In this document: positions 577 to 60,893 of the stretch, one piece after another
Numbering within the stretch: the stretch's first letter is position 1
How the letters are laid out: each line of letters starts with the position of its first letter
Source: a virus
Length of the DNA: 64,000 bases
IMG/VR virus record: IMGVR_UViG_3300049988_000024
Coordinates: 1-64,000 of that record
Reading direction: 5' to 3' (one strand)
The notes under the pieces: generated by a model
The model's input: the letters and a program-made list of their open reading frames with translations, nothing else
Told to the model about the DNA's origin: nothing
The model's database searches: none
Position numbers and translations under genes: made by a program

Positions 577-605
577 GTTATAAGCGATCCCGTCGTGCCT
601 GTCAA
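577..605 (-). promoter_or_regulatory. sigma70-type promoter for the leftward operon
   Basis: Minus strand TTGACA (600-605), 17 nt, TATAAC (577-582), about 25 nt upstream of the AGGAGG/ATG at 552. Confidence 0.65.
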
Positions 606-606
606 G

Positions 607-835
607 CCTATACGGCAGCTATACGGATTTCCGGTTTCCAGGCGAAAAGCGTATAGGCTAAGTGGTTGAAATTGATTGATTATTTTTCTAGATATACCAT
701 ATTCTTTCTCTTTTCTAAAAGTATATAAAAAAGAAGAGAGGAAGGTAATATGTTAATAAGAAAAGTTTCTGGTTTCACACGAAAAGTGGTATAGCGCGAA
801 AATAAGTTGTTTTGTTTCAATAAGTTAGCGTATAC
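607..835 (+). repeat. 229-bp composite element, copy 1 (six GCTATAC-type boxes plus AT-rich dyad core)
   Basis: Boxes at 607, 618, 651 (complement), 693, 789 (complement) and 829. The same offsets occur in the copies at 23869-24097 and 43592-43820 (inverted). Confidence 0.9.
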
Positions 836-847: not shown

Positions 848-876
848 TTGTCTTTTGTGGCGCGCTGGTGTATATG
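848..876 (+). promoter_or_regulatory. candidate sigma70-type promoter for the rightward early genes
   Basis: TTGTCT (848-853), 17 nt, TATATG (871-876), 12 nt after the repeat element and 36 nt before the ATG at 912. Confidence 0.4.
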
Positions 877-21631: not shown

Positions 21632-23869
21632 ATGGCGCAAATCGAATCATACGCAGATATTCCAGAGGTCAACGCATACGTCAAACGCCACGGGGCACAG
21701 TTCCGTTCGGCGTCGAAGGCGGTTGTAGAGGAGAAGGTTGGAGAGTATTTTCGCGAGGTCGCCAAGATCAAGTTCTCGCGCGATGGGACCGTCAAGGCAA
21801 CACCTGGATACGAACCGGATGAAGCGGAAGGCGAGCGGATCGCGTTCGCTATTCGCAATGGGCAGTGGCCTGTCTGGCGCATGGCAACGGAAGCGGATGA
21901 GCCGCCCGACGCCGTGAAGCGGGCACTAGCCGAGAACCCTGACGACGTGTTTGCTTATCGCGATGTGACCGGCAAGCGCATATACATGTATCAGGTTCGA
22001 TACATGACCAAGAAGGGCAAGCGGTCCTATCATGCGTGGACCATCTACGAGGACAACGTTTGGCGTCCATGGGAACCGGATACGGAGCATCTACCGCTCT
22101 ACGGCCTGGAAACGCTGAAGGACAACAGCGTTGCGATCATCCATGAAGGCGCCAAGGCCGCTCGGGCGATGCAACGCATGATCGCACAAAAGACGGCGAA
22201 AGACAAGCGCCTGTTCGAGAATCATCCATGGGCGCAAGAGCTTTCGTTCGCGGCTCATGTGGCGTTCACGGCGGGCGCATTTGCTGCCAAGGACACCGAA
22301 TGGGAGATGTTGCGCCGTAACGGGATCGAAAGCGTCATCATCATTCCCGACAATGACGAGGCGGGACGGTCCGCTGTTCGCGACATCAGCAAGGCGGTCG
22401 GGTTGCCCGCGAAGTGGGTTCAATTCGATTCGCGGTTCCCGTCGTCGTTCGATATGGCTGACCCAATGCCGGAGGCGTTGTTCGTGGAAGCGGACGGGAA
22501 GAAGCATTGGAAGGGGCCGACGTTCGGAGAACTGATTACGCCTTGCACATGGGCGACACGGTTGATTCCGAACCCCGACAAGCCGGAAAAGATGATCGCG
22601 ACGCTGAACAGGGCGTTTCAACGGGAATGGTTCTATGTCGGGCAAACAGGGTTGTTCGCTTGGCGGCACGATCCGCGCATTCGCTACAACGAAACCAGCT
22701 TTAATGCCAATATGCGGCGCTGTTCTGATGTGAAGGACACGGCGGCGCTTGTGTTACAGGGTTTGACGGATAGTATCGACAAGCTGACGTATCGCCCCGA
22801 CTTGCGGTCGCAGAATGGCGATCGGCGCGTGAACGAGGGAATCGGCGAAACGGCGCTGAACACCTATTCGCCAACCAATGTCAAGGCCATACCGGGCGAC
22901 GTGACGATGTGGCACGAGTTCCTGGCACATCTGATACCCGATGAATCCGAACGCAAGCTTGTGGAGCGGTGGATCGCAACAGTTGTTGCGCGGCCAGCAA
23001 CACGAATGCGTTATGCGATGCTTCTGACCTCAGCCATGCAAGGAACCGGCAAGACCACGCTTTGCGAAGCGGTGTTGCGTCCGCTTGTTGGCAAACAGAA
23101 CTACAATGCCGTCACCGAAGACACGATCATGAACCCGCAGTTCAACGACTGGTTTGTTGAAAAGACGCTGGTTGTCGTGAATGAGTTCTACCAGAACAAG
23201 ACTAATCGCGCAGGAAACAAACTGAAAAGCGTGATTTCCGACGATATTGCGATGGTGAACACGAAGTATTTGGTTCCCTATGCTATCCGCAATCACGCGC
23301 ATTTGATTGCTTGTTCTAACACGGCTGTCGCGGTCGGAATCGAGGACTCGGATCGTCGTTGGCTTATTCCGACGTGTACGGAAGAAGCCTGGAAGTGGTC
23401 GGATAAGTTCTATCGCTGGTTGCATAGCGGTGGCTTGGAAGCGATCAAGCATTGGGCGGATACCTACGGTGATTACGTGACCACGGGCGAGCGGGCGCCG
23501 GATACCAAGGCCAAGCGCATGATCGTGGAGGAATCGCGCACGCCTCGCTGTCAGGAGGCTTATAACCTTTGGCGGGCTTTGGAGGAGCAAGGGGCGGAAC
23601 GGTCGATATCGCAGCGCAGGCTGAACAATTGGCTGCGCGGGTTCGATGCGGGCTATGCCAAGGATAAGGACGTAGACTATCGAAAAGCGATCCTGGAAGC
23701 GGGCGGATCGATCCTGGATGAGCGCATGAGCATCGACGGACGACCTCAGTATGTGATGGTCACTTCGGCTTTGAAGGCAAAGATGCAACAGTTGGATAAT
23801 GAATTGCGGCGAAAACTTGTTCGTGAATCGCTGCTTTGTGACGAAGATATGGCCAATCCGACCATCTAG
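21632..23869 (+). CDS. primase-helicase (Toprim-type primase fused to SF3 / P4-alpha, D5-like helicase)
   Basis: 745 aa. Toprim-like IHEGAKAARA...VIIIPDNDEAGRSA; Walker A SAMQGTGKTT; Walker B LVVVNEF; SF3-like IACSN. Confidence 0.8.
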   Translation: MAQIESYADIPEVNAYVKRHGAQFRSASKAVVEEKVGEYFREVAKIKFSRDGTVKATPGYEPDEAEGERIAFAIRNGQWPVWRMATEADEPPDAVKRALAENPDDVFAYRDVTGKRIYMYQVRYMTKKGKRSYHAWTIYEDNVWRPWEPDTEHLPLYGLETLKDNSVAIIHEGAKAARAMQRMIAQKTAKDKRLFENHPWAQELSFAAHVAFTAGAFAAKDTEWEMLRRNGIESVIIIPDNDEAGRSAVRDISKAVGLPAKWVQFDSRFPSSFDMADPMPEALFVEADGKKHWKGPTFGELITPCTWATRLIPNPDKPEKMIATLNRAFQREWFYVGQTGLFAWRHDPRIRYNETSFNANMRRCSDVKDTAALVLQGLTDSIDKLTYRPDLRSQNGDRRVNEGIGETALNTYSPTNVKAIPGDVTMWHEFLAHLIPDESERKLVERWIATVVARPATRMRYAMLLTSAMQGTGKTTLCEAVLRPLVGKQNYNAVTEDTIMNPQFNDWFVEKTLVVVNEFYQNKTNRAGNKLKSVISDDIAMVNTKYLVPYAIRNHAHLIACSNTAVAVGIEDSDRRWLIPTCTEEAWKWSDKFYRWLHSGGLEAIKHWADTYGDYVTTGERAPDTKAKRMIVEESRTPRCQEAYNLWRALEEQGAERSISQRRLNNWLRGFDAGYAKDKDVDYRKAILEAGGSILDERMSIDGRPQYVMVTSALKAKMQQLDNELRRKLVRESLLCDEDMANPTI

Positions 23870-26401: not shown

Positions 26402-26472
26402 ATCATCGTTCAACTATAATGAACAATCGAGTTAATTGTCAATTATTTTACGATATAAGCCAAGGAGGCCAA

Positions 26473-26895
26473 ATGTCTGAGGATAACCCGGTTGGGCGTC
26501 CTTCGCTCTTTAGGGAAGAATACGGCGATGTCATTATTGAATGGATGGACAAGGGTTTTAGTCTTACGGCGGCTGCATCACGTCTAGATGTTAGCCGCCA
26601 AACTGTTTACAATTGGGTAGACGAACACCCCGAATTCGCAGCCAAGGTGAAGATAGCTCAATCAAAGCGCCAGTTCTTCCTTGAGAATCGCCTACTGAAG
26701 GCGACTGAAGGCCCGGTCGTCACCTCTTCCATCTTCGCCCTCAAGAACGCCGCCCCCGCCGATTGGCTAGAGAAGACCCATACAGAGGTCACGGGCAAGG
26801 ACGGCGGGCCGATAGAGTCTAAGCAGTCGCTTGACATCACGGGCCTATCCGATGCGGTACTAGAAGAACTGCTTTCGAAGTTGGGGCAAAAGTAA
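26473..26895 (+). CDS. terS: terminase small subunit
   Basis: ORF track 26419..26895. ATG at 26473 after AGGAGG. GRPSLFREEYGDVIIEWMDKGFSLTAAASRLDVSRQTVYNWVDEHPEF is a typical TerS HTH N-terminus. Confidence 0.8.
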   Translation: MSEDNPVGRPSLFREEYGDVIIEWMDKGFSLTAAASRLDVSRQTVYNWVDEHPEFAAKVKIAQSKRQFFLENRLLKATEGPVVTSSIFALKNAAPADWLEKTHTEVTGKDGGPIESKQSLDITGLSDAVLEELLSKLGQK

Positions 26896-26913
26896 AGGGC
26901 CGTAAAGGCCCTT
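26895..26913. terminator. bidirectional hairpin between terS and the antisense cassette
   Basis: AAGGGCC-GTAAA-GGCCCTT. Confidence 0.55.
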
Positions 26914-27115
26914 AATTACTTCCTAGAAGTCTCAAGCTTTCTGGGATTTCAAGATCAAAAACAGGGTCAAGCTCTACCCCTCCTCCCTCAAAAGACCAAG
27001 CGTCCCACCCTCGTGTCTTAATTCCTAGCATAGCTAGTTTCGAAAATTGATAGAAATCTTCTCTTTCGAATGAAGATCGTGGATCAATTAGACATGTTGC
27101 TTTGTAGTATGCCAT
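26912..27115 (-). CDS. hypothetical protein (cassette A, gene A1)
   Basis: ORF track. AT-rich; GGAGAG RBS; own promoter. Confidence 0.6.
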   Translation of the reverse strand: MAYYKATCLIDPRSSFEREDFYQFSKLAMLGIKTRGWDAWSFEGGGVELDPVFDLEIPESLRLLGSN

Positions 27116-27141
27116 CTCATCTCTCCGTTCTCAACACCCAC

Positions 27142-27170
27142 AACATAGCCCGTGGTTTGGGGCTTGTCAA
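27142..27170 (-). promoter_or_regulatory. promoter of A1
   Basis: Minus strand TTGACA (27165-27170), 17 nt, TATGTT (27142-27147). The A2 TGA stop (27167-27169) lies inside the -35. Confidence 0.55.
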
Positions 27171-27370
27171 CTAGAAATATTGTCTTCTTTGGTTGGGCTT
27201 ACAGTTCCAACGATACGTTTCTGTGTATAGTATTCATTTGGAACACAATCGTACTTACCGCGCTTGAATTCAATGATCTTGTAAGGCTCTTTCATTGTAT
27301 CGGCCCAAGCTTGCGCTTTTGCGAATGCCCACGCTTCCGAGCATGGTTTGAGAGAAAGAAAATAGCTCAT
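27167..27370 (-). CDS. hypothetical protein (A2)
   Basis: ORF track. Confidence 0.6.
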   Translation of the reverse strand: MSYFLSLKPCSEAWAFAKAQAWADTMKEPYKIIEFKRGKYDCVPNEYYTQKRIVGTVSPTKEDNISS

Positions 27371-27523
27371 TTAAGCCACCTTCTTAAGAAGAAAAATTTC
27401 AATCGAAGCATCAGCCGTGTAAATTTCGGCAAGCTGCGCAATGATATCCTGACGATCAATTGCGTATGTTTCCATAAACTTGGAAACGCCGTCGATGTAT
27501 GCCATGAAAGCGAACTTGGACAT
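27371..27523 (-). CDS. hypothetical small protein (A3, 50 aa)
   Basis: ORF track 27371..27697. Internal ATG at 27523 after CGGAG (MSKFAFMAYIDG...). Confidence 0.5.
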   Translation of the reverse strand: MSKFAFMAYIDGVSKFMETYAIDRQDIIAQLAEIYTADASIEIFLLKKVA

Positions 27524-27547
27524 CTGCTTGCTCCGTTTCGATGATTG

Positions 27548-27576
27548 ATATTCGCACACGGCCGAAACCCTGTCAA
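27548..27576 (-). promoter_or_regulatory. promoter of A3-A2
   Basis: Minus strand TTGACA (27571-27576), 17 nt, GAATAT (27548-27553). The A4 TGA stop (27573-27575) lies inside the -35. Confidence 0.5.
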
Positions 27577-27842
27577 CAAGAATCCGCAATCTCTCGCGAT
27601 TTAATTTCGGCATATTCTTCAACGGCCAGAACGTACAATCCCCAATCCGTCCGCTTTCGCCCTGGCCAAACCGATGCCTTCTCAAATCCCATACCACGCT
27701 CTAGAGCATATTCCTGAGCCTTCTCGATGAAGGCAAAGAAGTCCCAAGTCGGTGGCAAAGGATCGCCTTCCACCAGCCCTTTTGACCGGAGGAAGGCGCG
27801 ATAAAAATCGGTGTAAACCGAAAGCTCTTCGACTCTCTTCAT
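27573..27842 (-). CDS. hypothetical protein (A4)
   Basis: ORF track 27573..27854. ATGA overlap at 27842. Confidence 0.6.
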   Translation of the reverse strand: MKRVEELSVYTDFYRAFLRSKGLVEGDPLPPTWDFFAFIEKAQEYALERGMGFEKASVWPGRKRTDWGLYVLAVEEYAEIKSREIADSC

Positions 27843-28033
27843 GCAACCATCCACATCGAACCGTTCTTGGTGATCAGGCCCTTCTCAGAAGCCATACGGA
27901 AAGCAGCCGAGTAAGCAGCGCGGGTGTGCGAGACGTTGAAGTAGGAAGCGACGAACCAAGACTGACCGGCGTTGATGGCGTCCACGATCTCGTTAAAGCA
28001 GACTTCGACAGAGGGGTTGAGGTTGCGGGCCAT
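27839..28033 (-). CDS. hypothetical protein (A5)
   Basis: ORF track; AGGAA RBS. Confidence 0.6.
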   Translation of the reverse strand: MARNLNPSVEVCFNEIVDAINAGQSWFVASYFNVSHTRAAYSAAFRMASEKGLITKNGSMWMVA

Positions 28034-28070
28034 TTGCTTCGTTCCTGTGTTTGTCCGTTTCGATGATCAA

Positions 28071-28099
28071 GTTATAGCCCTACCCCAAATCCCTGTCAA
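28071..28099 (-). promoter_or_regulatory. promoter of A5-A4
   Basis: Minus strand TTGACA (28094-28099), 17 nt, TATAAC (28071-28076). Confidence 0.6.
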
Positions 28100-28145
28100 C
28101 CACTTTCTCGCATCCAACGCAAAATAATCAGAAGGACCAGACCCC

Positions 28146-28220
28146 ATGTCCATCGAACGAATCCTAGGCATCTGCATTCTCGTAATCTTGGTCGTATGGC
28201 TGGCGACAAGGGTTCTGTAG
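28146..28220 (+). CDS. possible 24-aa hydrophobic peptide on the opposite strand
   Basis: Hand-found: MSIERILGICILVILVVWLATRVL, between the A5 promoter and the A6 terminator. No clear RBS. Confidence 0.25.
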   Translation: MSIERILGICILVILVVWLATRVL

Positions 28221-28229
28221 GCAAAGGAA

Positions 28230-28248
28230 AAGGGGCTTAGCGCCCCTT
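28230..28248 (-). terminator. rho-independent terminator of the A9-A6 unit
   Basis: Minus strand AAGGGGC-GCTAA-GCCCCTT followed by TTTCCTTTG. Confidence 0.6.
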
Positions 28249-28629
28249 AACCATTTTATACGTAACGCCTTGGCTTTCAAATAGGCGGGTTGCCCAATCG
28301 CCGTCTAGCGGGTTGAAGCCTGTCATCGAGCCTTCTGCGATGAGGCCGCGTACAAGCTTTAGGCCGCTAACAAGGGCGTCCCGCTCAGCGGTCAGGGATT
28401 CGATTTCAAGCGCATCTCGCTCTGAATCAGAACAGAGCTTTTCCCAACCCTGCATGGTCGCATCCATGTTGGCGAACTCTTCGTTAAGCCGACGCTTCAA
28501 CTCGTCGCGTTCAGCCGTCAGGGATTCGATTTCCTCAGCCGCTTCCTTAATGACGCCCCGCAAATTGCCAGGATGAGCGTTTTCGTACAGCGTCCATTCG
28601 CGAAGTTTATCGGCGAAAGTCTTTTCCAT
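28237..28629 (-). CDS. coiled-coil protein with internal EIESLTAERD(E/A)L repeat (A6)
   Basis: ORF track 28237..28668. ATG at 28629 after GGGAGAAAAG. Confidence 0.6.
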   Translation of the reverse strand: MEKTFADKLREWTLYENAHPGNLRGVIKEAAEEIESLTAERDELKRRLNEEFANMDATMQGWEKLCSDSERDALEIESLTAERDALVSGLKLVRGLIAEGSMTGFNPLDGDWATRLFESQGVTYKMVKGR

Positions 28630-28802
28630 CACTTTTCTCCCGTCTTCGGCACCGCCACCATCTCGCAAGCATACACGTTATGCTGACGGGCGCAATCGCG
28701 GAGCTTGCGTTCATACTTGTTAGGTGATCCAAAAATCAAGATCGCAAGCCCAAACCCAATTATCAGGGAGCCGACCCCGACAAGTGCTAGAGACTTCATC
28801 AT
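28629..28802 (-). CDS. small membrane protein (A7, 57 aa)
   Basis: Hand-found. GGAGGAAGGACG then ATGATG at 28802 (MMKSLALVGVGSLIIGFGLAILIFG...). Confidence 0.5.
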   Translation of the reverse strand: MMKSLALVGVGSLIIGFGLAILIFGSPNKYERKLRDCARQHNVYACEMVAVPKTGEK

Positions 28803-28927
28803 CGTCCTTCCTCCACAACATACCCACGCGCCACCAAGAACGCACGGGCTTCGTCTAGCATGTGGGTGGGCAAGCTGTAAACGCCTTGGAACTTGCGGCC
28901 GGGTTGGGTGAAGCGGATGGTGATCAT
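28799..28927 (-). CDS. hypothetical small protein (A8)
   Basis: ORF track 28799..28987. The longer form overlaps A9, so the ATG at 28927 is preferred (MITIRFTQPGRKF...). Start uncertain. Confidence 0.4.
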   Translation of the reverse strand: MITIRFTQPGRKFQGVYSLPTHMLDEARAFLVARGYVVEEGR

Positions 28928-28946
28928 TTGTAAAATACCTTGTTGA

Positions 28947-29156
28947 TTAGATTTCGAGTTCGCGCAGGAAAACGCGATCGTTTGCAATTTTTCGAATTTC
29001 AGCAGCTAGCTCAAAGTCGCGCTCAGCCAACATCTCGGAAACAGTGTTTGCATTATCACCAAAAGGTGCAACATGCTTGGAGTTGGATGCGGTGTTTGCG
29101 CCCTCAATTATAAGAGCGGCACGATTCAAGATTTGGTTCATTTGTAAGCGGTTCAT
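28947..29156 (-). CDS. hypothetical protein (A9)
   Basis: ORF track; AGGAGA RBS. Confidence 0.6.
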   Translation of the reverse strand: MNRLQMNQILNRAALIIEGANTASNSKHVAPFGDNANTVSEMLAERDFELAAEIRKIANDRVFLRELEI

Positions 29157-29182
29157 CGTCTTTCTCCTACGGTTCCCCGTTA

Positions 29183-29211
29183 CGTGTAGCTGAGGATGGG
29201 TTGGGTGTCAA
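29183..29211 (-). promoter_or_regulatory. promoter of A9-A6
   Basis: Minus strand TTGACA (29206-29211), 17 nt, TACACG (29183-29188). The A10 TGA stop (29208-29210) lies inside the -35. Confidence 0.45.
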
Positions 29212-29450
29212 GTACCGTAAAAATCAGAATTTTCGCGAATTGAATATGTTGCTGGATTTCCGTTGCCATCTATAAAAGAAATCTCAATCTTTTCGGATGT
29301 CACGCGCTTGACGGTCAAGTCCTTAATGCGGGTATTGATGCACTTTGAAACAACAAAACCGCTCGCTGTCTCCAGATCATTTGCGGTTATAGCCCAAGCT
29401 GTTGTGAAAGGCAACTTAGATGGCACAGCTTCAATGATAAAGGTCTTCAT
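29208..29450 (-). CDS. hypothetical protein (A10)
   Basis: ORF track 29208..29477. ATG at 29450 after AGGAG. Confidence 0.6.
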   Translation of the reverse strand: MKTFIIEAVPSKLPFTTAWAITANDLETASGFVVSKCINTRIKDLTVKRVTSEKIEISFIDGNGNPATYSIRENSDFYGT

Positions 29451-29476
29451 CTCTCTTCTCCTTTGTCCACAATCCA

Positions 29477-29505
29477 TGTGTAGCGGGTTTGGGGTGGGTG
29501 GTCAA
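29477..29505 (-). promoter_or_regulatory. promoter of A10
   Basis: Minus strand TTGACC (29500-29505), 17 nt, TACACA (29477-29482). The A11 TGA stop (29502-29504) lies inside the -35. Confidence 0.45.
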
Positions 29506-29771
29506 TCGCTTTTCTTCGGCAATCTAGCTTCTGGCCAGCCGAGTTTAGCGCACCAAACGGTTCGCGCTTCTAGATAGCGCCAAGGAAATTCATCACCGCA
29601 ATTTCTAACATAGTCGTCTTCCCAACGCAGCGCAGTTATCTCCCAAGCCTTTGCGCGATATTCTCCTTTGCCTAGCAGCATATCGCAAGCTCTTTCGTGG
29701 GCCTCCGCTCGGAAGCGGAGGAGGGTTTCGTATTTGTGTCGGGCGTAGATTTCATCCATTCCTTCGATCAT
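29502..29771 (-). CDS. hypothetical protein (A11)
   Basis: ORF track. Confidence 0.6.
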   Translation of the reverse strand: MIEGMDEIYARHKYETLLRFRAEAHERACDMLLGKGEYRAKAWEITALRWEDDYVRNCGDEFPWRYLEARTVWCAKLGWPEARLPKKSD

Positions 29772-29914
29772 GCCACGATCTCGCGAGTCTCGATTTCGAT
29801 AAGCTGGCAGGAGTAGAAACCGCCAAATTCGCGCATCCGAAAACCATGAGCGCGGGGAACGATGCGGATTTCAACGGCGCTGTTGTGGTTGTCCTGAGTG
29901 TGCATTTCGATCAT
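29768..29914 (-). CDS. hypothetical small protein (A12, 48 aa)
   Basis: Hand-found. ACGGAGCAAACAA then ATG at 29914. ATGA overlap with A11. Confidence 0.45.
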   Translation of the reverse strand: MIEMHTQDNHNSAVEIRIVPRAHGFRMREFGGFYSCQLIEIETREIVA

Positions 29915-29987: not shown

Positions 29988-31457
29988 ATGCCTAAACCCG
30001 CATCTATTCCGCTTAGTCGCCTACCGAGCGTCGATCAGATCGAAACCGAGCTTAGCCGTCGCCATTGTCAGCGCTCGTTCCGCGAGTTCGCTAAGCAGGC
30101 TTGGCATGTCATCGAACCGTCCACCTCGCTCAAATGGAATTGGGCGATGGACGCTATCTGCGATCACCTCCAAGCCGTCCACGAAGGTCACATCAAGCGC
30201 CTCCTGATGAACGTGCCTCCTGGTACGTCTAAATCGACGCTGACGGGCGTTCTCTATCCGGCTTGGGTGTGGACGCAAGACCCTTCGAAACGCTTCCTAG
30301 GGACGGCCCATAAGGCTGAGCTTGCGCACCGAGACAATCTGAAGTGCCGTCGTATCATTCAGTCCGAATGGTATCAGAAGCGTTGGAAGATCGAACTGAC
30401 GGGCGATGCTAACCGCACAACCAAATTCGAGAACACAAAGACCGGCTTTCGCGAATCGATGGCCTTTACTGGCATGACGGGTTCCCGTGGCGACTGCGTG
30501 ATTCTTGACGATCCGATTAGCGCGGGCAATTCAAATAGCGAAGCCGAGCTTTACAAGGCCGAAATCGAGTTCACGGAAACGCTGCCAACGCGCGTCAACA
30601 ATGACGAATCGGCCATTATCGTCGTGATGCAGCGGCTTAACGAACGTGATACGTCTGGTCTCATCCTGAGCCGCGATCTTGGATACGAACACTTGATGTT
30701 GCCTATGCGCTTTGAGCCTGAGCGCAAGTGTTATACTTCGATTGGCTTTGGAGACCCGCGCACCGAAGAAGGCGAATTGCTCTTTCCTGAGCGCTTCCCT
30801 GAATCACAGGTCGCAAGCCTAGAGAAGACGATGGGATCGTTCGGCGCGGCTGGCCAGTTGCAGCAACGGCCTATTCCGCGTGGTGGTGGACTCTTTCAGC
30901 GATCTTGGTTCAATCCGATCCGAGAAGTGCCGCAGGGCACACGCTTCTTCCGAGGATGGGACTTAGCCGCTTCCACTAGTGCTACTTCGGCCTATACCGC
31001 AGGCGTCAAGCTTGGCCTTACGCCAGAAGGCCGGATCGTTATTGCCCATGCTATCCGTGACCGCATGACGGCTGGCAAGGTCATTGCAACTATTCGCGCA
31101 ACGGCTATGGCCGATACTGAGAAAACAAAGCTATCGATCCCGCAAGACCCTGGCCAAGCGGGCAAGGCTCAAAAGGAAGGATTCGCGCAACAGCTTCGTG
31201 AGTTCAATGTGCATTTCTCGCCTGAGTCTGGCGACAAGGTGACGCGCGCCGAACCTTTCGCGGCACAAGCCGAAGCCGGTCTTGTGGATATCGTCGTTGG
31301 CGAGTGGACAGACGCCTATCTAGACGAGATTTCAACGTTCCCGAATGGATCGTATCTCGATCAGGTAGACGCGACTTCGCGCGCCTACCATTTGTTGTTG
31401 CGGGAAACAGCAAAACCAAAAGCGACTATCGGCTGGGGTCCGAAGTTGGTTAGTTAA
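29988..31457 (+). CDS. terL: terminase large subunit
   Basis: ORF track 29973..31457 (ATG at 29988 preferred over GTG at 29973). Walker A-like NVPPGTSKST; VILDDP Walker B; C-terminal nuclease-like half. Length and N-terminus are typical of TerL. Confidence 0.85.
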   Translation: MPKPASIPLSRLPSVDQIETELSRRHCQRSFREFAKQAWHVIEPSTSLKWNWAMDAICDHLQAVHEGHIKRLLMNVPPGTSKSTLTGVLYPAWVWTQDPSKRFLGTAHKAELAHRDNLKCRRIIQSEWYQKRWKIELTGDANRTTKFENTKTGFRESMAFTGMTGSRGDCVILDDPISAGNSNSEAELYKAEIEFTETLPTRVNNDESAIIVVMQRLNERDTSGLILSRDLGYEHLMLPMRFEPERKCYTSIGFGDPRTEEGELLFPERFPESQVASLEKTMGSFGAAGQLQQRPIPRGGGLFQRSWFNPIREVPQGTRFFRGWDLAASTSATSAYTAGVKLGLTPEGRIVIAHAIRDRMTAGKVIATIRATAMADTEKTKLSIPQDPGQAGKAQKEGFAQQLREFNVHFSPESGDKVTRAEPFAAQAEAGLVDIVVGEWTDAYLDEISTFPNGSYLDQVDATSRAYHLLLRETAKPKATIGWGPKLVS

Positions 31458-31648
31458 CGCCCACCCTCCACGGCCTGCCGCGCCTGCTCTTCTAGCATTG
31501 CCGTCTGCCACCCGTCAAGCCACCATCGGCCCTCGTTGGATGGATGCTCGTAAGGACATTCTGTCCAATCCTTGCCATCGCGAAAGGCGTCTTCGCCCGC
31601 GTTCTCTAGGGCAAGGCGGGTAAGGTTTGGTTTAGTGTTCATGATCAA
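31454..31648 (-). CDS. Rmf / CrpP-family small protein (B1)
   Basis: DGKDWTECPYEHPSNEGRWWLDGWQTAM parallels E. coli Rmf ...SKEMCPYQTLNQRSQWLGGWREAM. Confidence 0.6.
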   Translation of the reverse strand: MIMNTKPNLTRLALENAGEDAFRDGKDWTECPYEHPSNEGRWWLDGWQTAMLEEQARQAVEGGR

Positions 31649-31886
31649 TCTCCGGCTGAATCATTCTTGGGTAGGCACTTCGCACGTCACAGTTAGGTCG
31701 CGGAATTACAATCAAAACGTAGTCTGAGCCCCGCGACGAAATCCCCGGCATCGAGCCATTTTCGCGAATGATTTCGTCGCGGTTAATTTCATGCCAACCA
31801 TCATGCGTTGGACGCGGAAACCGGCCTTCGCCTTCGTATTTCCATTTACCACCGGGCTTGAAATAATAGAAATCGCAGTCGTTCAT
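31632..31886 (-). CDS. hypothetical protein (B2)
   Basis: ORF track. Confidence 0.6.
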   Translation of the reverse strand: MNDCDFYYFKPGGKWKYEGEGRFPRPTHDGWHEINRDEIIRENGSMPGISSRGSDYVLIVIPRPNCDVRSAYPRMIQPEIDHEH

Positions 31887-31887
31887 C

Positions 31888-32163
31888 CTATTCTCCTTCC
31901 CCTACCGGCCTCGTATAGCGCTCTAGGCACTTGCGAGCAAGCGGCTGTACATATGGCACACCATTCTCAGCAACAAGATACCCGATACCCCGGCGCGGCC
32001 AAGCGAGCTTCGCGTATCCGACAATCTCGATCTTAGCTCCTTCCGCGAGAATGTCAAGCTGGTTCTTATCGCGGCAAAAGTCTTCGAAGATCGGTATCTC
32101 CACCACAAAACGGTCGCCTCGCTTGAACCGCAGTTCGGCATCGTACTCAGCGTCGGTTTTCAT
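31888..32163 (-). CDS. hypothetical protein (B3)
   Basis: ORF track 31888..32238. ATGA overlap at 32163. Confidence 0.55.
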   Translation of the reverse strand: MKTDAEYDAELRFKRGDRFVVEIPIFEDFCRDKNQLDILAEGAKIEIVGYAKLAWPRRGIGYLVAENGVPYVQPLARKCLERYTRPVGEGE

Positions 32164-32354
32164 CGATCCGTAACCACTTGTTGTAGGTTGCGTCCTGCGG
32201 TCGTGATGTCTTCTAGCGTTGCATCGCGCCACAAACAAATGGCGCGAAAGTTGATATCGTCTCCGATATACTCCTCGACTTGAAGCACGATTGCGGGCGG
32301 CTTATCGGGCTCCAGAACGACATTCCTGAAACGGCTTCGTCCGGTTAGGCTCAT
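32160..32354 (-). CDS. hypothetical protein (B4)
   Basis: ORF track 32160..32450. ATGA overlap at 32354. Confidence 0.55.
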   Translation of the reverse strand: MSLTGRSRFRNVVLEPDKPPAIVLQVEEYIGDDINFRAICLWRDATLEDITTAGRNLQQVVTDR

Positions 32355-32584
32355 AGGTCTTTCGCCTTTTCTATGCTCAGCACGCGCCACGACCACTTGT
32401 TGGGGATCGAACCCGCAGCGTTCATGGCCACTTCTGCGGCATGGTTCCAATCGCGCGCCGATACCAGCAACTCAACGTCGCGCGTTTCATAATCCAGTTC
32501 ATGTGTTCTGAGATACGGATGACGACCGTTCAAGTGAACCTTGACATGGAACGGGAATTCGGGTTTGCGGCAAAAGCAGAACAT
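32351..32584 (-). CDS. hypothetical protein (B5)
   Basis: ORF track 32351..32587. ATG at 32584 after GGAGG. Confidence 0.55.
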   Translation of the reverse strand: MFCFCRKPEFPFHVKVHLNGRHPYLRTHELDYETRDVELLVSARDWNHAAEVAMNAAGSIPNKWSWRVLSIEKAKDL

Positions 32585-32592
32585 CAAACCTC

Positions 32593-32796
32593 CTATGCGA
32601 CGTTATACGCCGCAATGGCGTCCCGAAGATCGTAACCGGAATGCACCTTCTGTCCATCGGCCCACACAACAAAATACATGACCTTTTGCATCATGTCGAT
32701 TTCAGCCGTGATGCACTTATCAGTTGTCGCATCGATATGCCGTGCCACCTGAACGTCAAGTGGTTTGATCATACTAGTGTTAAGAATTGCAGCCAT
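32593..32796 (-). CDS. hypothetical protein (B6)
   Basis: ORF track 32593..32817. ATG at 32796 after AGGAG. Confidence 0.55.
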   Translation of the reverse strand: MAAILNTSMIKPLDVQVARHIDATTDKCITAEIDMMQKVMYFVVWADGQKVHSGYDLRDAIAAYNVA

Positions 32797-32797
32797 T

Positions 32798-33016
32798 TCA
32801 GTTCTCCTTTGTTGCATTAGCGCGCTTTAGAAGCTCAGCCTTCAATTCACGCACCTCTTCCATCTTCCAGCGATGCAAATCCCATTCCTCTTCAGCTAAC
32901 TTGGTTTGCTTCCGCGCTTCGTTTTCGGCATTGCTAGCGCGCGACATGGCGTCCCACGCTTCACGTTCTAGCTCAAGCATTTCGCCATAGATGGCTTCTG
33001 TGGTTTTCCAATCCAT
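32798..33016 (-). CDS. hypothetical coiled-coil protein (B7)
   Basis: ORF track 32798..33052. ATG at 33016 after GGAG. Confidence 0.55.
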   Translation of the reverse strand: MDWKTTEAIYGEMLELEREAWDAMSRASNAENEARKQTKLAEEEWDLHRWKMEEVRELKAELLKRANATKEN

Positions 33017-33017
33017 C

Positions 33018-33245
33018 TTAGTTACTCCTCTGCATCTGAATACCGCGCGCAATCATCTCACGCATCACGACGGTTTGAACCAAAAGCTTTGACACCAAAT
33101 CCTGCTTCATGTCAAGCCGATTCATGAGATCAACGATTGCCGCATCGTCGCCTTCAAAGCGACGCGCCATCGGATTTGCGAGATTATCACAAGCCTTCAC
33201 AACATCGATAAGTTGGTCGTCAGTCATCGCGTAAACGATAAGCAT
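33018..33245 (-). CDS. hypothetical protein (B8)
   Basis: ORF track; GGAG RBS. Confidence 0.6.
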   Translation of the reverse strand: MLIVYAMTDDQLIDVVKACDNLANPMARRFEGDDAAIVDLMNRLDMKQDLVSKLLVQTVVMREMIARGIQMQRSN

Positions 33246-33272
33246 CTCGGTTCTCCGTTAAATCCGATCCAC

Positions 33273-42988: not shown

Positions 42989-43582
42989 ATGCCTCAGTCG
43001 AAATATTTCTTGGGCGAATGGAAGGACGTTGCAGATGGGGAGTTCGTGGTTGCGCGAGCTTTCCCGGTTGCAGGCGAAGTGCAGGCTCCCGGAACTCCGT
43101 TCGAAAAGGACGGCATTGACGGGCGCCGGTTGAAGCAGCTTTACGAAGCAAGATACATCACGCCTCGCGATAGCGATTTGCCGGGGCTTGGAGGCACCGT
43201 AGAACGCGAATTGAAGGGCGATGCTACCGACCTAGCGGCCAGCCCTTCCGAAGGCGCCCTAGAGGCTTTTACGGGCGATTCCACTGAAGAGGTTGCGGAA
43301 CGCTACGAAGACGAGCCTACGGACGCGGAAGAGCCGGTTGTGAATAGCGCTACCGAGCCTGAACTTCGCGAAGGCGATGAAGCCGCGCCAGTTAGCGATA
43401 TCAAGGAAGACACCGAGACGGAAAAACAGCCCAAGCGCACCGGAACGGTTGTCGAAGGCAAGGCCGGTTGGTTCCACGTCGAGGACGGCGAAGGCAATAA
43501 GGTCGGCAAGTCCACCCGTGACGAGGAAGAGGCAAAGGAGAACCTTGAACTCTACCTTTTGGGTGAGAATTTCGAGGAATAA
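42989..43582 (+). CDS. hypothetical acidic protein
   Basis: ORF track. Long Asp/Glu-rich, probably disordered middle section. Confidence 0.6.
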   Translation: MPQSKYFLGEWKDVADGEFVVARAFPVAGEVQAPGTPFEKDGIDGRRLKQLYEARYITPRDSDLPGLGGTVERELKGDATDLAASPSEGALEAFTGDSTEEVAERYEDEPTDAEEPVVNSATEPELREGDEAAPVSDIKEDTETEKQPKRTGTVVEGKAGWFHVEDGEGNKVGKSTRDEEEAKENLELYLLGENFEE

Positions 43583-43591: not shown

Positions 43592-43820
43592 GTATAGCTT
43601 AAACTATTGATTTTGTTGGTTCTTTTTCGGAGCTATACGGGTTTTTGAGTGAAAGTGAAAAGTTTTTAAACTGATATTACTACTACCCTTTCTCTTTTTT
43701 ATATACTTTATAAAAGAGAGAAGAATATGGTATAGCTAAAAAAATAAGATAACAAAAACAACAGCTTAAGCTATACGCAATTTGAAATCAGACCCCAAAT
43801 CCGTATAGCCTTCGTATAGC
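43592..43820 (-). repeat. 229-bp composite element, copy 3 (inverted)
   Basis: The reverse complement aligns with copies 1 and 2. Boxes at the same offsets counted from 43820 (43820, 43809, 43776, 43734, 43638, 43598). Confidence 0.9.
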
Positions 43821-43832: not shown

Positions 43833-44213
43833 ATGCCCAGCTTCCTTGAAGGTCCTCTTCGTAACGCCGTGGCCGTTGGCTTTCGCGGCAAGCTGAAAAA
43901 GGGTATGTTGCGCCGGGATGTGTTCGCTGCTGGCGTAGATGAATACGGCGATCCGCTTCCATCGTCAACCGTTTCTTATCCGTTCGAAGGCTTCGTAGAT
44001 ACGTATTCTGCTTTCGTTCGCGCTCAGGCGGGCATCCCTGATACAGATGCCAAGATTTGTATTCTAGGCGCAAATTTGCCTAAAGGCGTTGTTCCGCGTC
44101 AAGGCGATCGGATCACGCTTGGCGGGCAACGCTTCCAAGCGGTTCGATTGACCAATGTTGATCCCGCTGGCGCCCTCTACGAAGTTCAGTCTACGGAGCT
44201 TCCGGATGGCTGA
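43833..44213 (+). CDS. head-tail joining / head closure protein
   Basis: ORF track. Size and position before the gp10-like gene. Family not verified. Confidence 0.5.
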   Translation: MPSFLEGPLRNAVAVGFRGKLKKGMLRRDVFAAGVDEYGDPLPSSTVSYPFEGFVDTYSAFVRAQAGIPDTDAKICILGANLPKGVVPRQGDRITLGGQRFQAVRLTNVDPAGALYEVQSTELPDG

Positions 44214-59765: not shown

Positions 59766-60893
59766 ATGGTAGCATTGACCGATGAACTGGCGCAAGAGGC
59801 TGTTGCGCTTTTGGCTCAGGAAGGAACGGTTACAGCGGTCGCGCGTCGGCTTGGCCTTTCACGTTCAACCGTTCAAAACCGTTTGAATCGTGCCAGTGAA
59901 CGCGGTTTGGATGGTCGTTTGCCTGCTTCATTGCCACAAGGTCAAGTCGTCAAGGGTGAGTCGGTTTTGTATGACGAAGCCGGTAACATTAAAATGCGAT
60001 GGGTTAAGACGAAAGCCGATCAGCCGACACCGGAACACATCGCTGAAATTCTAAAAGAAAGCTTCGAAAATTACCAAGCTCCTTACCTGAATGCAAAGCC
60101 GCAAGGCTATTCTGACACGGACCTTTTGACGGTTATTCCAGTTGCAGACGCACACGTTGGATTATTTAGCTGGGCTGAGGAAACTGGCAACGATTGGGAT
60201 ATCTCAATTGCCCGACGTGTTATCGCACAAACCACGAAGCGCTTGATCGAATCGACGCCAAATGCGGGTCATTGCGTTATTCTTGGCGGAGGTGATGCCA
60301 CACATACCAACAACTTCGAAAACCATACCGCGAAGTCCAAGAACGCGCTGGATGTTGATTCACGGTTTTCCAAGGTTCTTCGCTCGGCTTGTGAACTGTT
60401 TGTTCAAATTACTGACTTGGCTCTTCAGAAGTTTCCGCGTGTCACTGTTCGTATCTTGCCTGGAAATCACGACGAGACGGCTTGCTTTGCGATTGCCTAT
60501 TTCTTGTCGGCTTGGTATCGCAATGAGCCGCGCGTTGAAGTCGATACATCGCCTTCACTTTTCTGGTGGTATCGTTTCGACAACGTGCTTCTGGGCGGCG
60601 TTCATGGGCATACGGCCAAAATGAAGGATATGCCGCAGATTATGGCGGTTCGGCGTGCTGAGGATTGGGGACGGACCCAGCATAGATACATCCACACGTT
60701 CCATATTCACCACATAGAACGGTTTGTAAATGAAGCTGGTGGCGTTATCTGCGAAAGCCATCAGTCGCCTTCGTCGCAAGACGCTTGGCATTTCAACGAA
60801 GGATTCTTGTCAGGGCGGTCCATGCAATCCGTGACTTATCACAGAAAGCACGGTGAAGTTACACGAAATAGGATTGCAATCTACGATGAATGA
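59766..60893 (+). CDS. HTH domain fused to a calcineurin-like metallophosphoesterase
   Basis: N-terminal VTAVARRLGLSRSTVQNRLNRA. Phosphoesterase motifs VADAHVG, GGGDATH, PGNHDE, GGVHGH and FHIHH. Confidence 0.7.
   Translation: MVALTDELAQEAVALLAQEGTVTAVARRLGLSRSTVQNRLNRASERGLDGRLPASLPQGQVVKGESVLYDEAGNIKMRWVKTKADQPTPEHIAEILKESFENYQAPYLNAKPQGYSDTDLLTVIPVADAHVGLFSWAEETGNDWDISIARRVIAQTTKRLIESTPNAGHCVILGGGDATHTNNFENHTAKSKNALDVDSRFSKVLRSACELFVQITDLALQKFPRVTVRILPGNHDETACFAIAYFLSAWYRNEPRVEVDTSPSLFWWYRFDNVLLGGVHGHTAKMKDMPQIMAVRRAEDWGRTQHRYIHTFHIHHIERFVNEAGGVICESHQSPSSQDAWHFNEGFLSGRSMQSVTYHRKHGEVTRNRIAIYDE

What the first reader, a model, noticed from the sequence alone, without database searches (positions are those of the whole stretch)
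43592..43820. Element copy 3 is inverted and interrupts the structural operon between the head and neck/tail genes
Copy 3 sits between the last head-module ORF (ends 43582) and the first neck gene. That gene's ATG at 43833 lies only 12 nt beyond the outermost box and has no obvious Shine-Dalgarno sequence. It is the reverse complement of copies 1 and 2 over its whole length, not just the near-palindromic core. For example, agctataccatattcttc is the reverse complement of 43719-43736 and matches agatataccatattctttc at 690-708. If the element were a simple promoter, this copy would fire against the capsid genes. Copies 2 and 3 form an inverted pair bracketing 19.5 kb that holds all packaging and head genes. 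This raises three possibilities: segment inversion by recombination, transposon-end-like behaviour, or a boundary (linker) sequence used for module exchange.
Basis: seen in the sequence. Interest (0 to 1): 0.7.

Follow-up and report, generated by a model that had tools for sequence, protein, structure and literature searches.

The report
Extra inverted copy of phage replication origin
The inverted ~230-bp repeat between the head and neck genes is most likely a third copy of this phage's replication-origin-type DNA site, built from binding boxes for the phage's own primase-helicase around an easily melted centre, rather than an inversion switch, transposon end or simple promoter.

Summary
The window carries exactly three full copies of a ~230-bp AT-rich element (607-835 +, 23869-24097 +, 43592-43820 reversed). 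Copy 3 is the reverse complement of the others along its whole length.

Each copy has six 7-nt boxes (GCTATAC/GTATAGC). Two 47-nt inverted arms carry IHF-consensus sites. The cores are the three least stable duplex stretches in the 64 kb.

The same three copies sit at the same three junctions, in the same +,+,- orientations, in a second lineage (about 80% primase-helicase identity).

Copy 2 begins at the stop codon of a Toprim/DUF5906 primase-helicase. Its C-terminal domain models as a winged helix. In 15 of 25 distant loci encoding homologues, lineage-specific inverted iterons flank a pyrimidine/purine-tract core just after the stop codon (p = 4e-22). That is the layout described for SaPI/PICI pri-rep origins.

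Box type and the predicted recognition helix change together between lineages, at all three copies. In copy 3, all 36 box-core bases are conserved against 66% elsewhere.

The best reading is an additional initiator-binding, origin-type site, comparable to SPP1 oriR. Inversion, transposon-end and linker roles are not supported. A transcriptional boundary role cannot be excluded.

The parts
43592..43820 (-). Element copy 3 (the finding), reverse orientation relative to copies 1 and 2
   Evidence: Alignment A1, 77% in reverse orientation. nhmmer E = 2e-58 on the minus strand.
43814..43820 (-). Copy 3, box 1 (GCTATAC read on the minus strand)
   Evidence: Conserved in the L003 orthologue.
43803..43809 (-). 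Copy 3, box 2; boxes 1 and 2 are tandem at 11-nt spacing. Box 2 (GCTATACGGATTT) is the most conserved box across the copies aligned in A3 (two lineages); it is absent from L094
43770..43776 (+). Copy 3, box 3 (outer box of arm IR-L)
   Evidence: (I1).
43756..43768 (+). Copy 3, IHF-like site in arm IR-L (AAACAACAGCTTA, one mismatch to WATCAANNNNTTR)
43730..43736 (-). Copy 3, box 4 (inner box next to the core)
43639..43729 (-). Copy 3 core: AT-rich, pyrimidine tract then purine tract, with a central hairpin around TATATAC. Proposed DNA-unwinding region
   Evidence: The 80-bp window 43673-43752 is one of the three least stable in 64 kb (-85.4 against a mean of -115.6, sd 7.1). ssDNA fold z = -4.9.
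43632..43638 (+). Copy 3, box 5 (inner box on the other side of the core, opposite orientation to box 4)
43600..43612 (-). Copy 3, IHF-consensus site in arm IR-R (AATCAATAGTTTA, exact match)
43592..43598 (-). Copy 3, box 6 (outer box of arm IR-R), 10 nt after the head-gene stop codon
23869..24097 (+). Element copy 2. Its first box starts on the G of the primase-helicase TAG stop codon. Proposed ancestral, primary origin copy
   Evidence: Both arms carry exact IHF consensus sites at 23921-23933 and 24077-24089. The least stable 80-mer of the window is 23937-24016.
607..835 (+). Element copy 1, between divergent early transcription units
   Evidence: Second least stable 80-mer, 679-758.
21632..23869 (+). 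Primase-helicase (Toprim + DUF5906/NrS-1-like SF3 helicase + C-terminal domain). Proposed initiator that reads the boxes
   Evidence: Pfam, PDB 6k9c helicase match, homologue set.
23543..23761 (+). Predicted winged-helix domain of the primase-helicase (helix-strand-helix-helix-strand-strand). Predicted recognition helix DVDYRKAILE
   Evidence: AF2 with MSA: mean pLDDT 84.6, above 90 over this stretch. Foldseek hits are weak but almost all are winged-helix domains. The helix differs in lineages with different boxes.
578..606 (-). Leftward sigma-70-like promoter. Its -35 (CTTGAC) abuts box 1 of copy 1
   Evidence: The same arrangement is seen in L088.
848..876 (+). Rightward sigma-70-like promoter (TTGTCT-N17-TATATG), about 12 nt beyond box 6 of copy 1
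   Evidence: Read. A comparable site is present in L088. Inferred.
42989..43582 (+). Last head-module ORF upstream of copy 3
   Evidence: Conserved in L003, L004 and L006.
43833..44213 (+). First neck-module ORF downstream of copy 3. Its ATG is 12 nt after box 1, with only a weak GGGA Shine-Dalgarno-like sequence

Best explanation
Copy 3 is one of three copies of this phage's origin-type initiator-binding element.

The element has the design described for SaPI/PICI/P4-like pri-rep origins. Short lineage-specific boxes (iterons) lie on both sides of an AT-rich, easily melted core and point in opposite directions. They are read by the C-terminal winged-helix domain of a self-loading primase-helicase. 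Here each side is extended into a 47-nt arm of the form box, IHF-consensus site, box. A pair of tandem boxes sits at one end.

Proposed mechanism, all of it inferred:
1. The primase-helicase encoded at 21632-23869 binds the boxes.
2. Host IHF bends the arms.
3. Two helicase rings assemble on either side of the core and melt it.

Because the inner part is nearly symmetric, orientation matters little. The inverted state of copy 3 would then be an inherited accident of how the copy arose, not a functional switch.

Copy 2, directly after the initiator gene, is the ancestral position. Copies 1 and 3 are additional sites kept under selection. Whether copy 3 fires as an origin or acts as an accessory initiator-binding site is not resolved. 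Accessory roles could include a fork barrier that triggers the theta-to-concatemer switch as proposed for SPP1 oriR, a P4 crr-like helper, or a transcription roadblock.
For: **Shown**

1. **Architecture.** Six boxes, two 47-nt inverted arms and a 91-nt AT-rich core. The three cores are the three least stable 80-bp duplexes of the window, more than 4 sd from the mean.
2. **IHF sites.** Three of the seven WATCAANNNNTTR matches in 64 kb lie in the arms. Six of 10 copies across lineages carry sites with 0-1 mismatch at mirror positions in both arms.
3. **Position of copy 2.** It starts at the stop codon of a Toprim/DUF5906 primase-helicase.
4. **Family-wide pattern.** In 15 of 25 loci encoding 30-41% identical homologues (phages, integrase-bearing elements, alphaproteobacterial genomes), an exact inverted repeat of at least 12 nt, made of tandem lineage-specific iterons, flanks a pyrimidine/purine-tract core within 350 nt of the stop codon. 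Control windows give 10 of 1247 (Fisher p = 4e-22).
5. **Published definition.** SaPI origins are described as iterons immediately downstream of rep, an AT-rich centre, at least two iterons per side in opposite directions, a C-terminal winged-helix domain that reads them, and two hexamers self-loading (PMC9371898). In Gram-negative PICIs the ori lies downstream of pri, and DUF5906 genes colocalise with mapped origins (PMC10111431).
6. **Winged helix.** The C-terminal domain models confidently as helix-strand-helix-helix-strand-strand. Foldseek hits are nearly all winged-helix domains, including ORC4, Cdt1 and RTP.
7. **Co-variation.** Lineages with GTATAGC boxes (window, L084, L085) share the predicted recognition helix DVDYRKA(I/V)LE. 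Lineages with AAAGTGTAT or GAATAC boxes (the 66,057-bp relative, L094) have D(M/H)EIRKAM(C/V)E. The C-terminal 100 aa are 46-56% identical against 72-100% for the rest of the protein.
8. **All three copies switched together.** All three copies carry the lineage's own predominant box type, although g66 copy 2 is mixed (one GTATAG and one AAGTGTAT box); arm pairs co-vary; and paralogue identity (78-82%) is at least as high as orthologue identity (69-73%).
9. **Selection on copy 3 itself.** Between the window and L003, 36 of 36 box-core bases are identical against 145 of 219 elsewhere (p = 2e-6).
10. **Conserved placement.** Same three junctions and same orientations in the second lineage.
11. 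**Precedent.** SPP1 oriL and oriR share an organisation of repeats plus an AT-rich unwinding element, and oriR interrupts the structural gene cluster (PMC6316719).
Against: - No experiment shows binding, melting or initiation.
- The Foldseek matches are statistically weak (best E = 0.15), and the P4 origin-binding domain was not among the top 50.
- The box/recognition-helix correlation rests on essentially one evolutionary switch among three or four lineages.
- The window element is more elaborate than the simple form of two iterons, core, two iterons seen in relatives. Box 2 keeps its sequence in the lineage whose inner boxes changed, which hints at a second binding protein.
- No second copies were seen in the +/-10 kb held for two distant relatives, so the multi-copy state is clade-specific and its purpose is unknown.
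- Copies 2 and 3 sit exactly at operon boundaries, and the downstream genes start 12-25 nt beyond them. At least part of each element must therefore be transcribed, so a transcriptional role is possible in addition or instead.
- GC-skew gives no clear origin signal.
Confidence: 0.6

Rival explanations
1. Transcriptional boundary cassette. Each element ends the upstream operon and restarts or regulates transcription of the next one. The boxes would be operators for a phage regulator, for example the HTH protein at 59766-60893 or an unidentified early protein, with IHF as architectural cofactor. The near-symmetry would let it work in either orientation.
For: - The copies lie exactly at module boundaries: divergent early promoters, replication to packaging, head to neck.
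- The left arm of copy 2 folds into a -25 kcal/mol RNA hairpin followed by a U-rich tail (z = -2.6).
- GC-rich hairpins occur in the arms of some copies.
- Box 4 read toward boxes 1-2 resembles an extended -10: TGGTATAGC or TGGTATAGT in the window lineage, TATAAT in all three copies of the second lineage (read).
- Genes 24120 and 43833 start 12-25 nt after the element, with the next consensus promoters at 25521 and 45604.
- The -35 of the leftward promoter abuts box 1 of copy 1.
Against: - Scans found no consistent sigma-70 promoter or intrinsic terminator in any copy.
- No conserved -35. The window boxes end in C where the -10 needs T.
- The hairpins are not conserved among copies.
- The phage has perfect consensus promoters elsewhere, so it does not need a 230-bp device for this.
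- This model does not explain why the same design follows the primase-helicase stop codon in distant phages and integrative elements. It also does not explain why box type tracks the helicase's winged-helix domain.
Confidence: 0.2
2. Recombination substrate. Copies 2 and 3 are crossover sites for inversion of the 19.5-kb packaging/head segment, or the element is a mobile or transposon-end-like unit, or a linker that promotes module exchange between phages.
For: - Copies 2 and 3 are an inverted pair.
- The element has 47-nt internal inverted arms with IHF-like sites, reminiscent of attP sites or transposon ends.
- Gene content directly right of copy 1 differs between lineages.
- There is a modest signal of concerted evolution among copies.
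Against: - The longest exact run shared by copies 2 and 3 is 10 nt.
- No integrase, invertase or transposase was found in the ORFs scanned.
- Every contig spanning a junction shows the same arrangement.
- Positions and orientations are identical in lineages about 20-30% diverged at the nucleotide level.
- The genomes are collinear, with no identity step at the elements.
- There are no target-site duplications or variable insertion sites.
Confidence: 0.07
3. Structured non-coding RNA gene or cis-RNA element encoded by the repeat.
For: RNAalifold finds 33 pairs, 14 of them with compensatory changes, between the two arms and in the core hairpin.
Against: - The consensus energy is only -5.4 kcal/mol.
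- The co-variation is what a DNA inverted repeat of protein-binding boxes gives.
- Copy 3 would be transcribed antisense relative to copies 1 and 2.
- There is no Rfam match.
- The RNA folds of the arms are not exceptional (z = -0.7 to -2.6).
Confidence: 0.03

Closest known systems
SaPI / PICI (and P4-like) pri-rep origins for self-loading initiator helicases
   Same: - Iterons begin immediately downstream of the rep or pri-rep ORF.
- The centre is AT-rich.
- At least two iterons lie on each side, pointing in opposite directions.
- The initiator is a (primase-)helicase with a C-terminal winged-helix domain.
- Box sequence is lineage-specific (PMC9371898; PMC10111431).

The window's copy 2 and 15 of 25 homologous loci fit this description.
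   Different: - Those elements have one ori per replicon; here there are three dispersed copies, one of them inverted inside the structural operon.
- Each side is expanded into a 47-nt box, IHF-like site, box arm, with extra tandem boxes at one end.
- The host replicon is a 66-kb tailed phage with its own DnaE-type polymerase, not a satellite.
- Sequence similarity to SaPI Rep was not tested. The helicase matches DUF5906 and NrS-1.
Bacillus phage SPP1 oriL / oriR
   Same: - Two origin-type sites share one organisation, repeats plus an AT-rich unwinding element, and are bound by one phage initiator.
- One site lies at the initiator gene. The other lies in an AT-rich intergenic island that interrupts the virion-assembly gene order.
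- oriR is proposed to stall forks and trigger the switch to concatemeric replication (PMC6316719; PMC3485210 abstract).
   Different: - SPP1 has an unrelated initiator (gp38 with a separate loader and a DnaB-type helicase) and two sites, not three.
- SPP1 oriL lies inside gene 38.
- Relative orientation of the two SPP1 sites was not checked here.
Phage P4 ori plus crr (from my own knowledge, not checked here)
   Same: A primase-helicase (alpha) with a C-terminal origin-binding domain recognises short iterons in two separate regions of one genome. The second region is required in cis for replication.
   Different: P4 has two regions 4.5 kb apart, a different box arrangement, and is a satellite phage. 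No P4 sequence or structure match was obtained.
Herpes simplex virus oriL and two oriS copies (from my own knowledge)
   Same: Three copies per genome of a palindromic origin. Each has an AT-rich centre flanked by inverted binding boxes for an initiator helicase and lies between divergent promoters, as copy 1 does.
   Different: It is a eukaryotic virus with an SF2 initiator (UL9). The oriS copies lie in large inverted genome repeats. There is no homology.

Membership tests
SaPI/PICI/P4-type pri-rep replication origin | Short iterons (5-9 nt), at least two on each side of the centre, pointing in opposite directions | tested here: met
   Copy 3 has six GCTATAC/GTATAGC boxes. Boxes 4 and 5 face each other across the core, and boxes 3 and 6 form the outer arm ends.
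SaPI/PICI/P4-type pri-rep replication origin | Central AT-rich region able to melt | tested here: met
   The three cores are the three least stable 80-bp windows of 64 kb (-84 to -85 kcal/mol against a mean of -115.6, sd 7.1). GC is 0.25-0.29.
SaPI/PICI/P4-type pri-rep replication origin | Located immediately downstream of the rep or pri-rep ORF | tested here: not met
   Copy 2 meets this: box 1 starts on the stop codon at 23869. Copy 3 itself does not; it lies 19.7 kb away between head and neck genes. It is filed here as a paralogue of copy 2 (77-78% identity), not by position.
SaPI/PICI/P4-type pri-rep replication origin | Cognate initiator is a helicase or primase-helicase with a C-terminal winged-helix DNA-binding domain | tested here: inconclusive
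   Toprim + DUF5906 helicase. The C-terminal domain models at pLDDT above 90 with winged-helix topology. Foldseek hits are nearly all winged-helix domains but weak (E >= 0.15).
SaPI/PICI/P4-type pri-rep replication origin | Iteron sequence co-varies with initiator specificity | tested here: inconclusive
   Box type and predicted recognition helix change together across window/L084/L085, the 66-kb relative and L094. This amounts to about one independent switch.
SaPI/PICI/P4-type pri-rep replication origin | Initiator binds and melts the site, and the site supports replication | not testable with these tools
   Needs EMSA or footprinting, permanganate probing, a plasmid ori assay, and marker-frequency sequencing.
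SPP1-type duplicated origin (oriL/oriR) | Two or more sites of the same organisation in one genome, one of them in an intergenic island within the late/structural region | tested here: met
   Three copies. Copy 3 lies between head and neck genes. The SPP1 description is in PMC6316719.
SPP1-type duplicated origin (oriL/oriR) | Homologue of the SPP1 initiator gp38 with its loader and DnaB-type helicase | not tested
   None of the roughly 60 ORFs scanned gave a DnaB, DnaC or replisome-organiser hit. No direct comparison with gp38 was made.
Site-specific DNA inversion system (Gin/Hin/Cin type) | Invertase gene, short inverted crossover sites, and both orientations present in populations | tested here: not met
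   No recombinase domain was found in the ORFs scanned. The only 'RDF' PHROG hit (17065-17496) is the PF25682 family. The sites are 230 bp and share at most 10 nt exactly. All junction-spanning contigs show one orientation.
MITE or transposon end | Terminal inverted repeats at the element ends, target-site duplication, variable insertion sites among relatives | tested here: not met
   The inverted arms are internal, and one end carries extra tandem boxes. The same three sites are occupied in diverged lineages. No flanking duplication is seen.
Sigma-70 promoter or intrinsic terminator | -35/-10 hexamers at 16-18 nt spacing, or a GC-rich hairpin with a 3-8 nt loop followed by a T run, conserved among copies | tested here: not met
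   Zero to three weak, non-homologous promoter-like hits and no terminator hits per copy, all within shuffle expectation. Copy 2 alone has a long-loop hairpin with a U-rich tail.
IHF-binding site | Match to WATCAANNNNTTR in an AT-rich context | tested here: met
   Exact matches at 43600-43612, 23921-23933 and 24077-24089. Six of 10 copies have mirror-image sites with 0-1 mismatch in both arms. Binding by an alphaproteobacterial IHF was not tested.

The most novel reading that the evidence does not exclude
A tailed phage runs a true multi-origin replicon. Three co-evolving, roughly equally spaced origins, about 23, 20 and 23 kb apart on the 66.5-kb genome, are all fired by one self-loading primase-helicase. 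The IHF-bent arms would be an added layer not described for SaPI/PICI origins. A variant of this reading: the inverted copy in the structural operon is a programmed fork-arrest or cruciform site that switches replication to the concatemer-forming mode. The conserved small gene right after copy 2, which carries a D..ExK motif, might then process it.
Probability: 0.3. Interest if true: 0.65.

Novelty: new variant of a known kind. Interest (0 to 1): 0.5.

Why it matters
If correct, there are three consequences.

1. It gives a sequence-level way to find replication origins in a large, mostly uncharacterised group of alphaproteobacterial phages and integrative elements that encode DUF5906 primase-helicases. 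Look just after the stop codon for lineage-specific inverted iterons around a pyrimidine/purine tract.
2. It provides a natural case in which one initiator specificity switch had to be matched at three dispersed sites. That makes it useful for studying initiator-origin co-evolution.
3. It adds a second phage example, after SPP1, of an origin-type site placed inside the virion-assembly operon. This bears on the open question of how phages switch from theta to concatemeric replication.

For annotation, such AT-rich islands between head and tail genes should not be assumed to be promoters or recombination scars.

Tried and rejected
- **Annotated phage records.** DNA similarity to annotated phages gave nothing for the region or the element. 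No published phage carries it.
- **Rfam and tRNA scans.** Only tRNA-Pro at 26109 was found.
- **Tandem-box search in viral contigs.** The exact pattern found two unrelated contigs. L001 is an 11-nt tandem array. L002 has three boxes after a terminase gene and no protein similarity to the window. I treated both as coincidence.
- **First architecture pattern.** It was mis-spaced by 1 nt for one lineage and returned 11 chance loci. The corrected pattern in metagenomes found only close relatives.
- **parS-like reading.** GGTTTCACNCGAAA matches 11 of 16 parS positions, but it is not conserved in the second lineage, so I dropped it.
- **Promoter readings.** Boxes as -10 elements and TTGATT as a -35 give 20-21 nt spacing and no T at -7. 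Neither could be made consistent across copies.
- **Protein search with the C-terminal 146 aa alone.** It returned nothing. The single-sequence AF2 model was poor (pLDDT 47), so I repeated it with an alignment.
- **PDB sequence searches.** Searches with the C-terminal domain, the 137-aa gene after copy 2 and the 375-aa HTH protein were uninformative.
- **Alternative box reader.** The HTH-metallophosphoesterase protein (59766-60893) has a more diverged HTH than the rest of the protein, but nothing links it to the element.
- **GC skew.** No interpretable origin signal.
Full report

Yes. The sequence at 43592-43820 lies between an ORF ending at 43582 and an ATG at 43833. It contains GTATAGC/GCTATAC boxes at 43592, 43632, 43730, 43770, 43803 and 43814. 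GCTATAC occurs 15 times in the window against 2.9 expected. No shuffle out of 100 reaches 15, and 13 of the 15 lie in three clusters near 0.6-0.8, 23.9-24.1 and 43.6-43.8 kb.

Aligned as its reverse complement, copy 3 matches copies 1 and 2 end to end (77% mean column identity, with the tandem end-boxes in register). In the forward orientation only the internally palindromic part aligns. A profile of the copies finds exactly three full-length matches in the 64 kb (E about 1e-52 to 1e-58).

**2. Anatomy**

In the orientation of copies 1 and 2 the element reads as follows:
- boxes 1 and 2 in tandem, 11 nt apart
- 22-23 nt of spacer
- arm IR-L: box 3 inverted, an IHF-like site, box 4
- an AT-rich core of about 90 nt
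- arm IR-R: box 5 inverted, an IHF-like site, box 6

The two 47-nt arms are inverted repeats of each other (pair I1). The core runs from a pyrimidine tract into a purine tract around a small hairpin centred on AAAGTATATA. As single-stranded DNA, copy 3 folds into one long hairpin (z = -4.9).

The three cores are the three least stable 80-bp duplex windows in the whole window: -84 to -85 kcal/mol against a mean of -115.6 (sd 7.1), with the next lowest at -93.

The conserved TAAGCCCTTGAT motif in the arms is the IHF consensus WATCAANNNNTTR. Three of the seven exact matches in 64 kb are in the arms. Six of 10 copies from several lineages have sites with 0-1 mismatch at mirror positions in both arms. 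The other copies carry a GC-rich hairpin there instead.

**3. Context**

The window is 64 kb of a 66.5-kb metagenomic phage contig. It has no DNA-level relative among annotated phages. Its terminase is 55% identical to that of a Rhizobium phage. It encodes a DnaE-type polymerase, a DnaQ-like exonuclease, RNR, ThyX, several HNH endonucleases and a Toprim/DUF5906 primase-helicase. No RNA polymerase, sigma factor, integrase or invertase was found in about 60 ORFs scanned.

Copy 1 lies between a leftward operon and the long rightward gene array. Sigma-70-like promoters directly abut both of its ends. Copy 2 starts on the stop codon of the primase-helicase. Copy 3 lies between the head and neck genes.

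None of the copies contains a consistent sigma-70 promoter or a canonical terminator. Perfect TTGAC(A/T)-N17-TATAAT sites occur elsewhere in the window.

**4. Relatives**

A second lineage is represented by a 66,057-bp contig. Its primase-helicase is 80% identical and its capsid protein 92% identical to the window's. It carries the element at the same three junctions in the same +,+,- orientations (nhmmer). Shorter contigs confirm copy 2 (L066, L084, L085) and copy 3 (L003, L005, L006, L092).

A third lineage, with a 53% identical primase-helicase, has the element after the primase-helicase gene. Capsid relatives at 48% identity or lower have no AT-rich island at this junction.

The two full genomes are collinear, and divergence is spread along their length.

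Box sequences differ by lineage:
- GTATAGC in the window type
- AAAGTGTAT in the second lineage
- GAATAC/GAATAG in the third

The arm pairs co-vary. Paralogous copies within a genome are at least as similar to each other (78%, 82%) as orthologous copies are between genomes (69-73%).

For copy 3 itself, the window and L003 are identical at all 36 box-core positions against 145 of 219 elsewhere (p = 2e-6). The boxes of this copy are therefore under purifying selection.

**5. The link to the primase-helicase**

I collected 75 homologues of the primase-helicase at 24-80% identity, most of them about 740 aa long. I then read the DNA after the stop codon in phage contigs, in an integrase-bearing element, and in 23 bacterial genome loci, almost all alphaproteobacterial.

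In 15 of 25 loci an exact inverted repeat of at least 12 nt lies within 350 nt of the stop codon, typically at about +2 to +8 and again about 100 nt further on. The arms are two or three tandem copies of a lineage-specific 6-9-nt box. They flank a core with a pyrimidine or purine tract. Control windows from the same loci show such repeats in 10 of 1247 cases (Fisher p = 4e-22).

This is the published design of SaPI origins:
- iterons immediately downstream of rep
- an AT-rich centre
- at least two iterons per side in opposite directions
- a C-terminal winged-helix domain of a self-loading helicase, sometimes fused to the primase, that reads them
- two hexamers proposed to load on either side of the centre (PMC9371898)

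In Gram-negative PICIs the ori is likewise downstream of pri, and DUF5906 genes colocalise with mapped origins (PMC10111431).

**6. The winged-helix domain**

The C-terminal 146 residues of the window protein were modelled with a 22-sequence alignment. The model has mean pLDDT 84.6, above 90 over residues 40-140, and the helix-strand-helix-helix-strand-strand order of a winged helix. Foldseek matches are individually weak (E >= 0.15) but almost all are winged-helix domains, including ORC4, Cdt1 and the replication terminator protein.

Between lineages the C-terminal 100 residues are 46-56% identical, against 72-100% for the rest of the protein. The predicted recognition helix is DVDYRKA(I/V)LE in the three contigs with GTATAGC boxes. 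It is D(M/H)EIRKAM(C/V)E in the two lineages with AAAGTGTAT or GAATAC boxes. This fits the idea that the domain reads the boxes. It amounts to about one independent switch.

**7. Interpretation**

The best-supported reading is that the element is the cognate origin-type site of the primase-helicase. Copy 2 is in the ancestral position. Copies 1 and 3 are extra copies that are still functional binding targets, because they kept pace with the specificity switch and because the boxes of copy 3 are conserved.

The inner part is nearly symmetric, so inversion need not matter. The conserved inverted state is then simply inherited.

What the extra copies do is not shown. They may be additional firing origins. 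The three are about 23, 20 and 23 kb apart on the 66.5-kb genome, assuming a circular or terminally redundant map. Alternatively they may be accessory sites. The nearest documented parallel is SPP1. Its oriL and oriR share one organisation, oriR interrupts the virion-assembly genes, and initiator bound at oriR is proposed to stall forks and trigger the switch to concatemeric replication (PMC6316719).

**8. Rivals**

*Transcriptional boundary role.* This remains possible, alone or in addition. The copies sit at operon boundaries. The left arm of copy 2 forms a strong RNA hairpin with a U-rich tail. Box 4 resembles an extended -10 pointing toward boxes 1-2. The downstream genes start only 12-25 nt beyond the element. 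However, this role does not explain the family-wide association with the primase-helicase stop codon.

*Inversion, transposon-end or linker roles.* These are not supported. Copies 2 and 3 share only 10 nt exactly. No recombinase was found. All junction-spanning contigs show one arrangement. Positions are fixed and the genomes are collinear.

*Structured RNA.* This is unlikely.

**9. Novelty**

An origin immediately downstream of a pri-rep gene is a known kind. Several things appear new:
- its presence in a 66-kb DnaE-encoding tailed phage clade
- the IHF-site-bearing arms
- three dispersed, co-evolving copies at conserved positions, one of them inverted inside the structural operon

I rate this a new variant of a known kind and of moderate interest.

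Noticed in passing
L096:6505-6650; L097:12184-12436; L098:8818-8991; L103-L118 just after each primase-helicase stop codon: Family-wide signature. Lineage-specific tandem iterons form inverted arms about 100 nt apart around a pyrimidine/purine-tract core, directly after DUF5906 primase-helicase genes in alphaproteobacterial genomes and phages. It is seen in 15 of 25 loci against 10 of 1247 control windows.
   Followed up: yes
L004:11535-11560 versus L006:11535-11560: The loop of the hairpin CTGAAACCC-loop-GGGTTTCAG is reverse-complemented between two close relatives (ttgctgcgtag versus ctacgcagcaa), a hairpin 'flip'. The same hairpin motif recurs in the arms of L085 copy 2 and L094 copy 2, where it replaces the IHF-like site.
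   Followed up: partly
window 26900-29800 and 31450-33250: Runs of small minus-strand ORFs with ATG starts, negative GC skew, and minus-strand CTTGAC promoter-like sites at 29212 and 33302. They look like leftward gene cassettes embedded between terS, terL and the portal gene, so the 19.5-kb segment is not purely rightward.
   Followed up: partly
window 11992, 25521, 33330, 37962, 45604, 52733 (also 1181, 59689): Near-perfect TTGAC(A/T)-N17-TATAAT sites, several sharing the GCTTGACTTTC motif of repeat family D1. They are likely host-RNA-polymerase promoters within the long rightward array.
   Followed up: partly
window 59766-60893: The last rightward gene encodes a 375-aa protein with an N-terminal HTH (resolvase/Fis/ISL3-like) fused to a domain with metallophosphoesterase motifs (GDxxH, GNHDE, HGH). 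The HTH is much more diverged between lineages than the catalytic part.
   Followed up: partly
window 24120-24533: The 137-aa gene directly after copy 2 is syntenic in relatives (139 aa in L094, 134 aa in L097). It carries a D...ExK motif suggestive of a PD-(D/E)xK nuclease. It has no Pfam, PHROG or PDB match.
   Followed up: partly
window 25794-29211 versus the 66,057-bp relative: Short segments of 60-220 nt at 81-94% identity stand out in a region that is otherwise unalignable between the two lineages. Examples are 25794-25877, 27100-27170 and 28386-28533, the last overlapping direct repeat D6.
   Followed up: no
L001:1507-1700: A 238-kb viral contig carries more than eight tandem 11-nt units GGCTATACGGA, the same box as in the window, in an iteron-like array. 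It shows no protein similarity to the window.
   Followed up: partly
window 19820-19881 and 20245-20306: An 81% direct repeat reflects two adjacent paralogous genes (19535-20038 and 19981-20469, both phrog_9174).
   Followed up: partly
window 17065-17496: Strong match to PF25682 (Mycobacterium phage VG64 family), which PHROGs label a recombination directionality factor. No integrase was found in the scanned ORFs of this phage.
   Followed up: no
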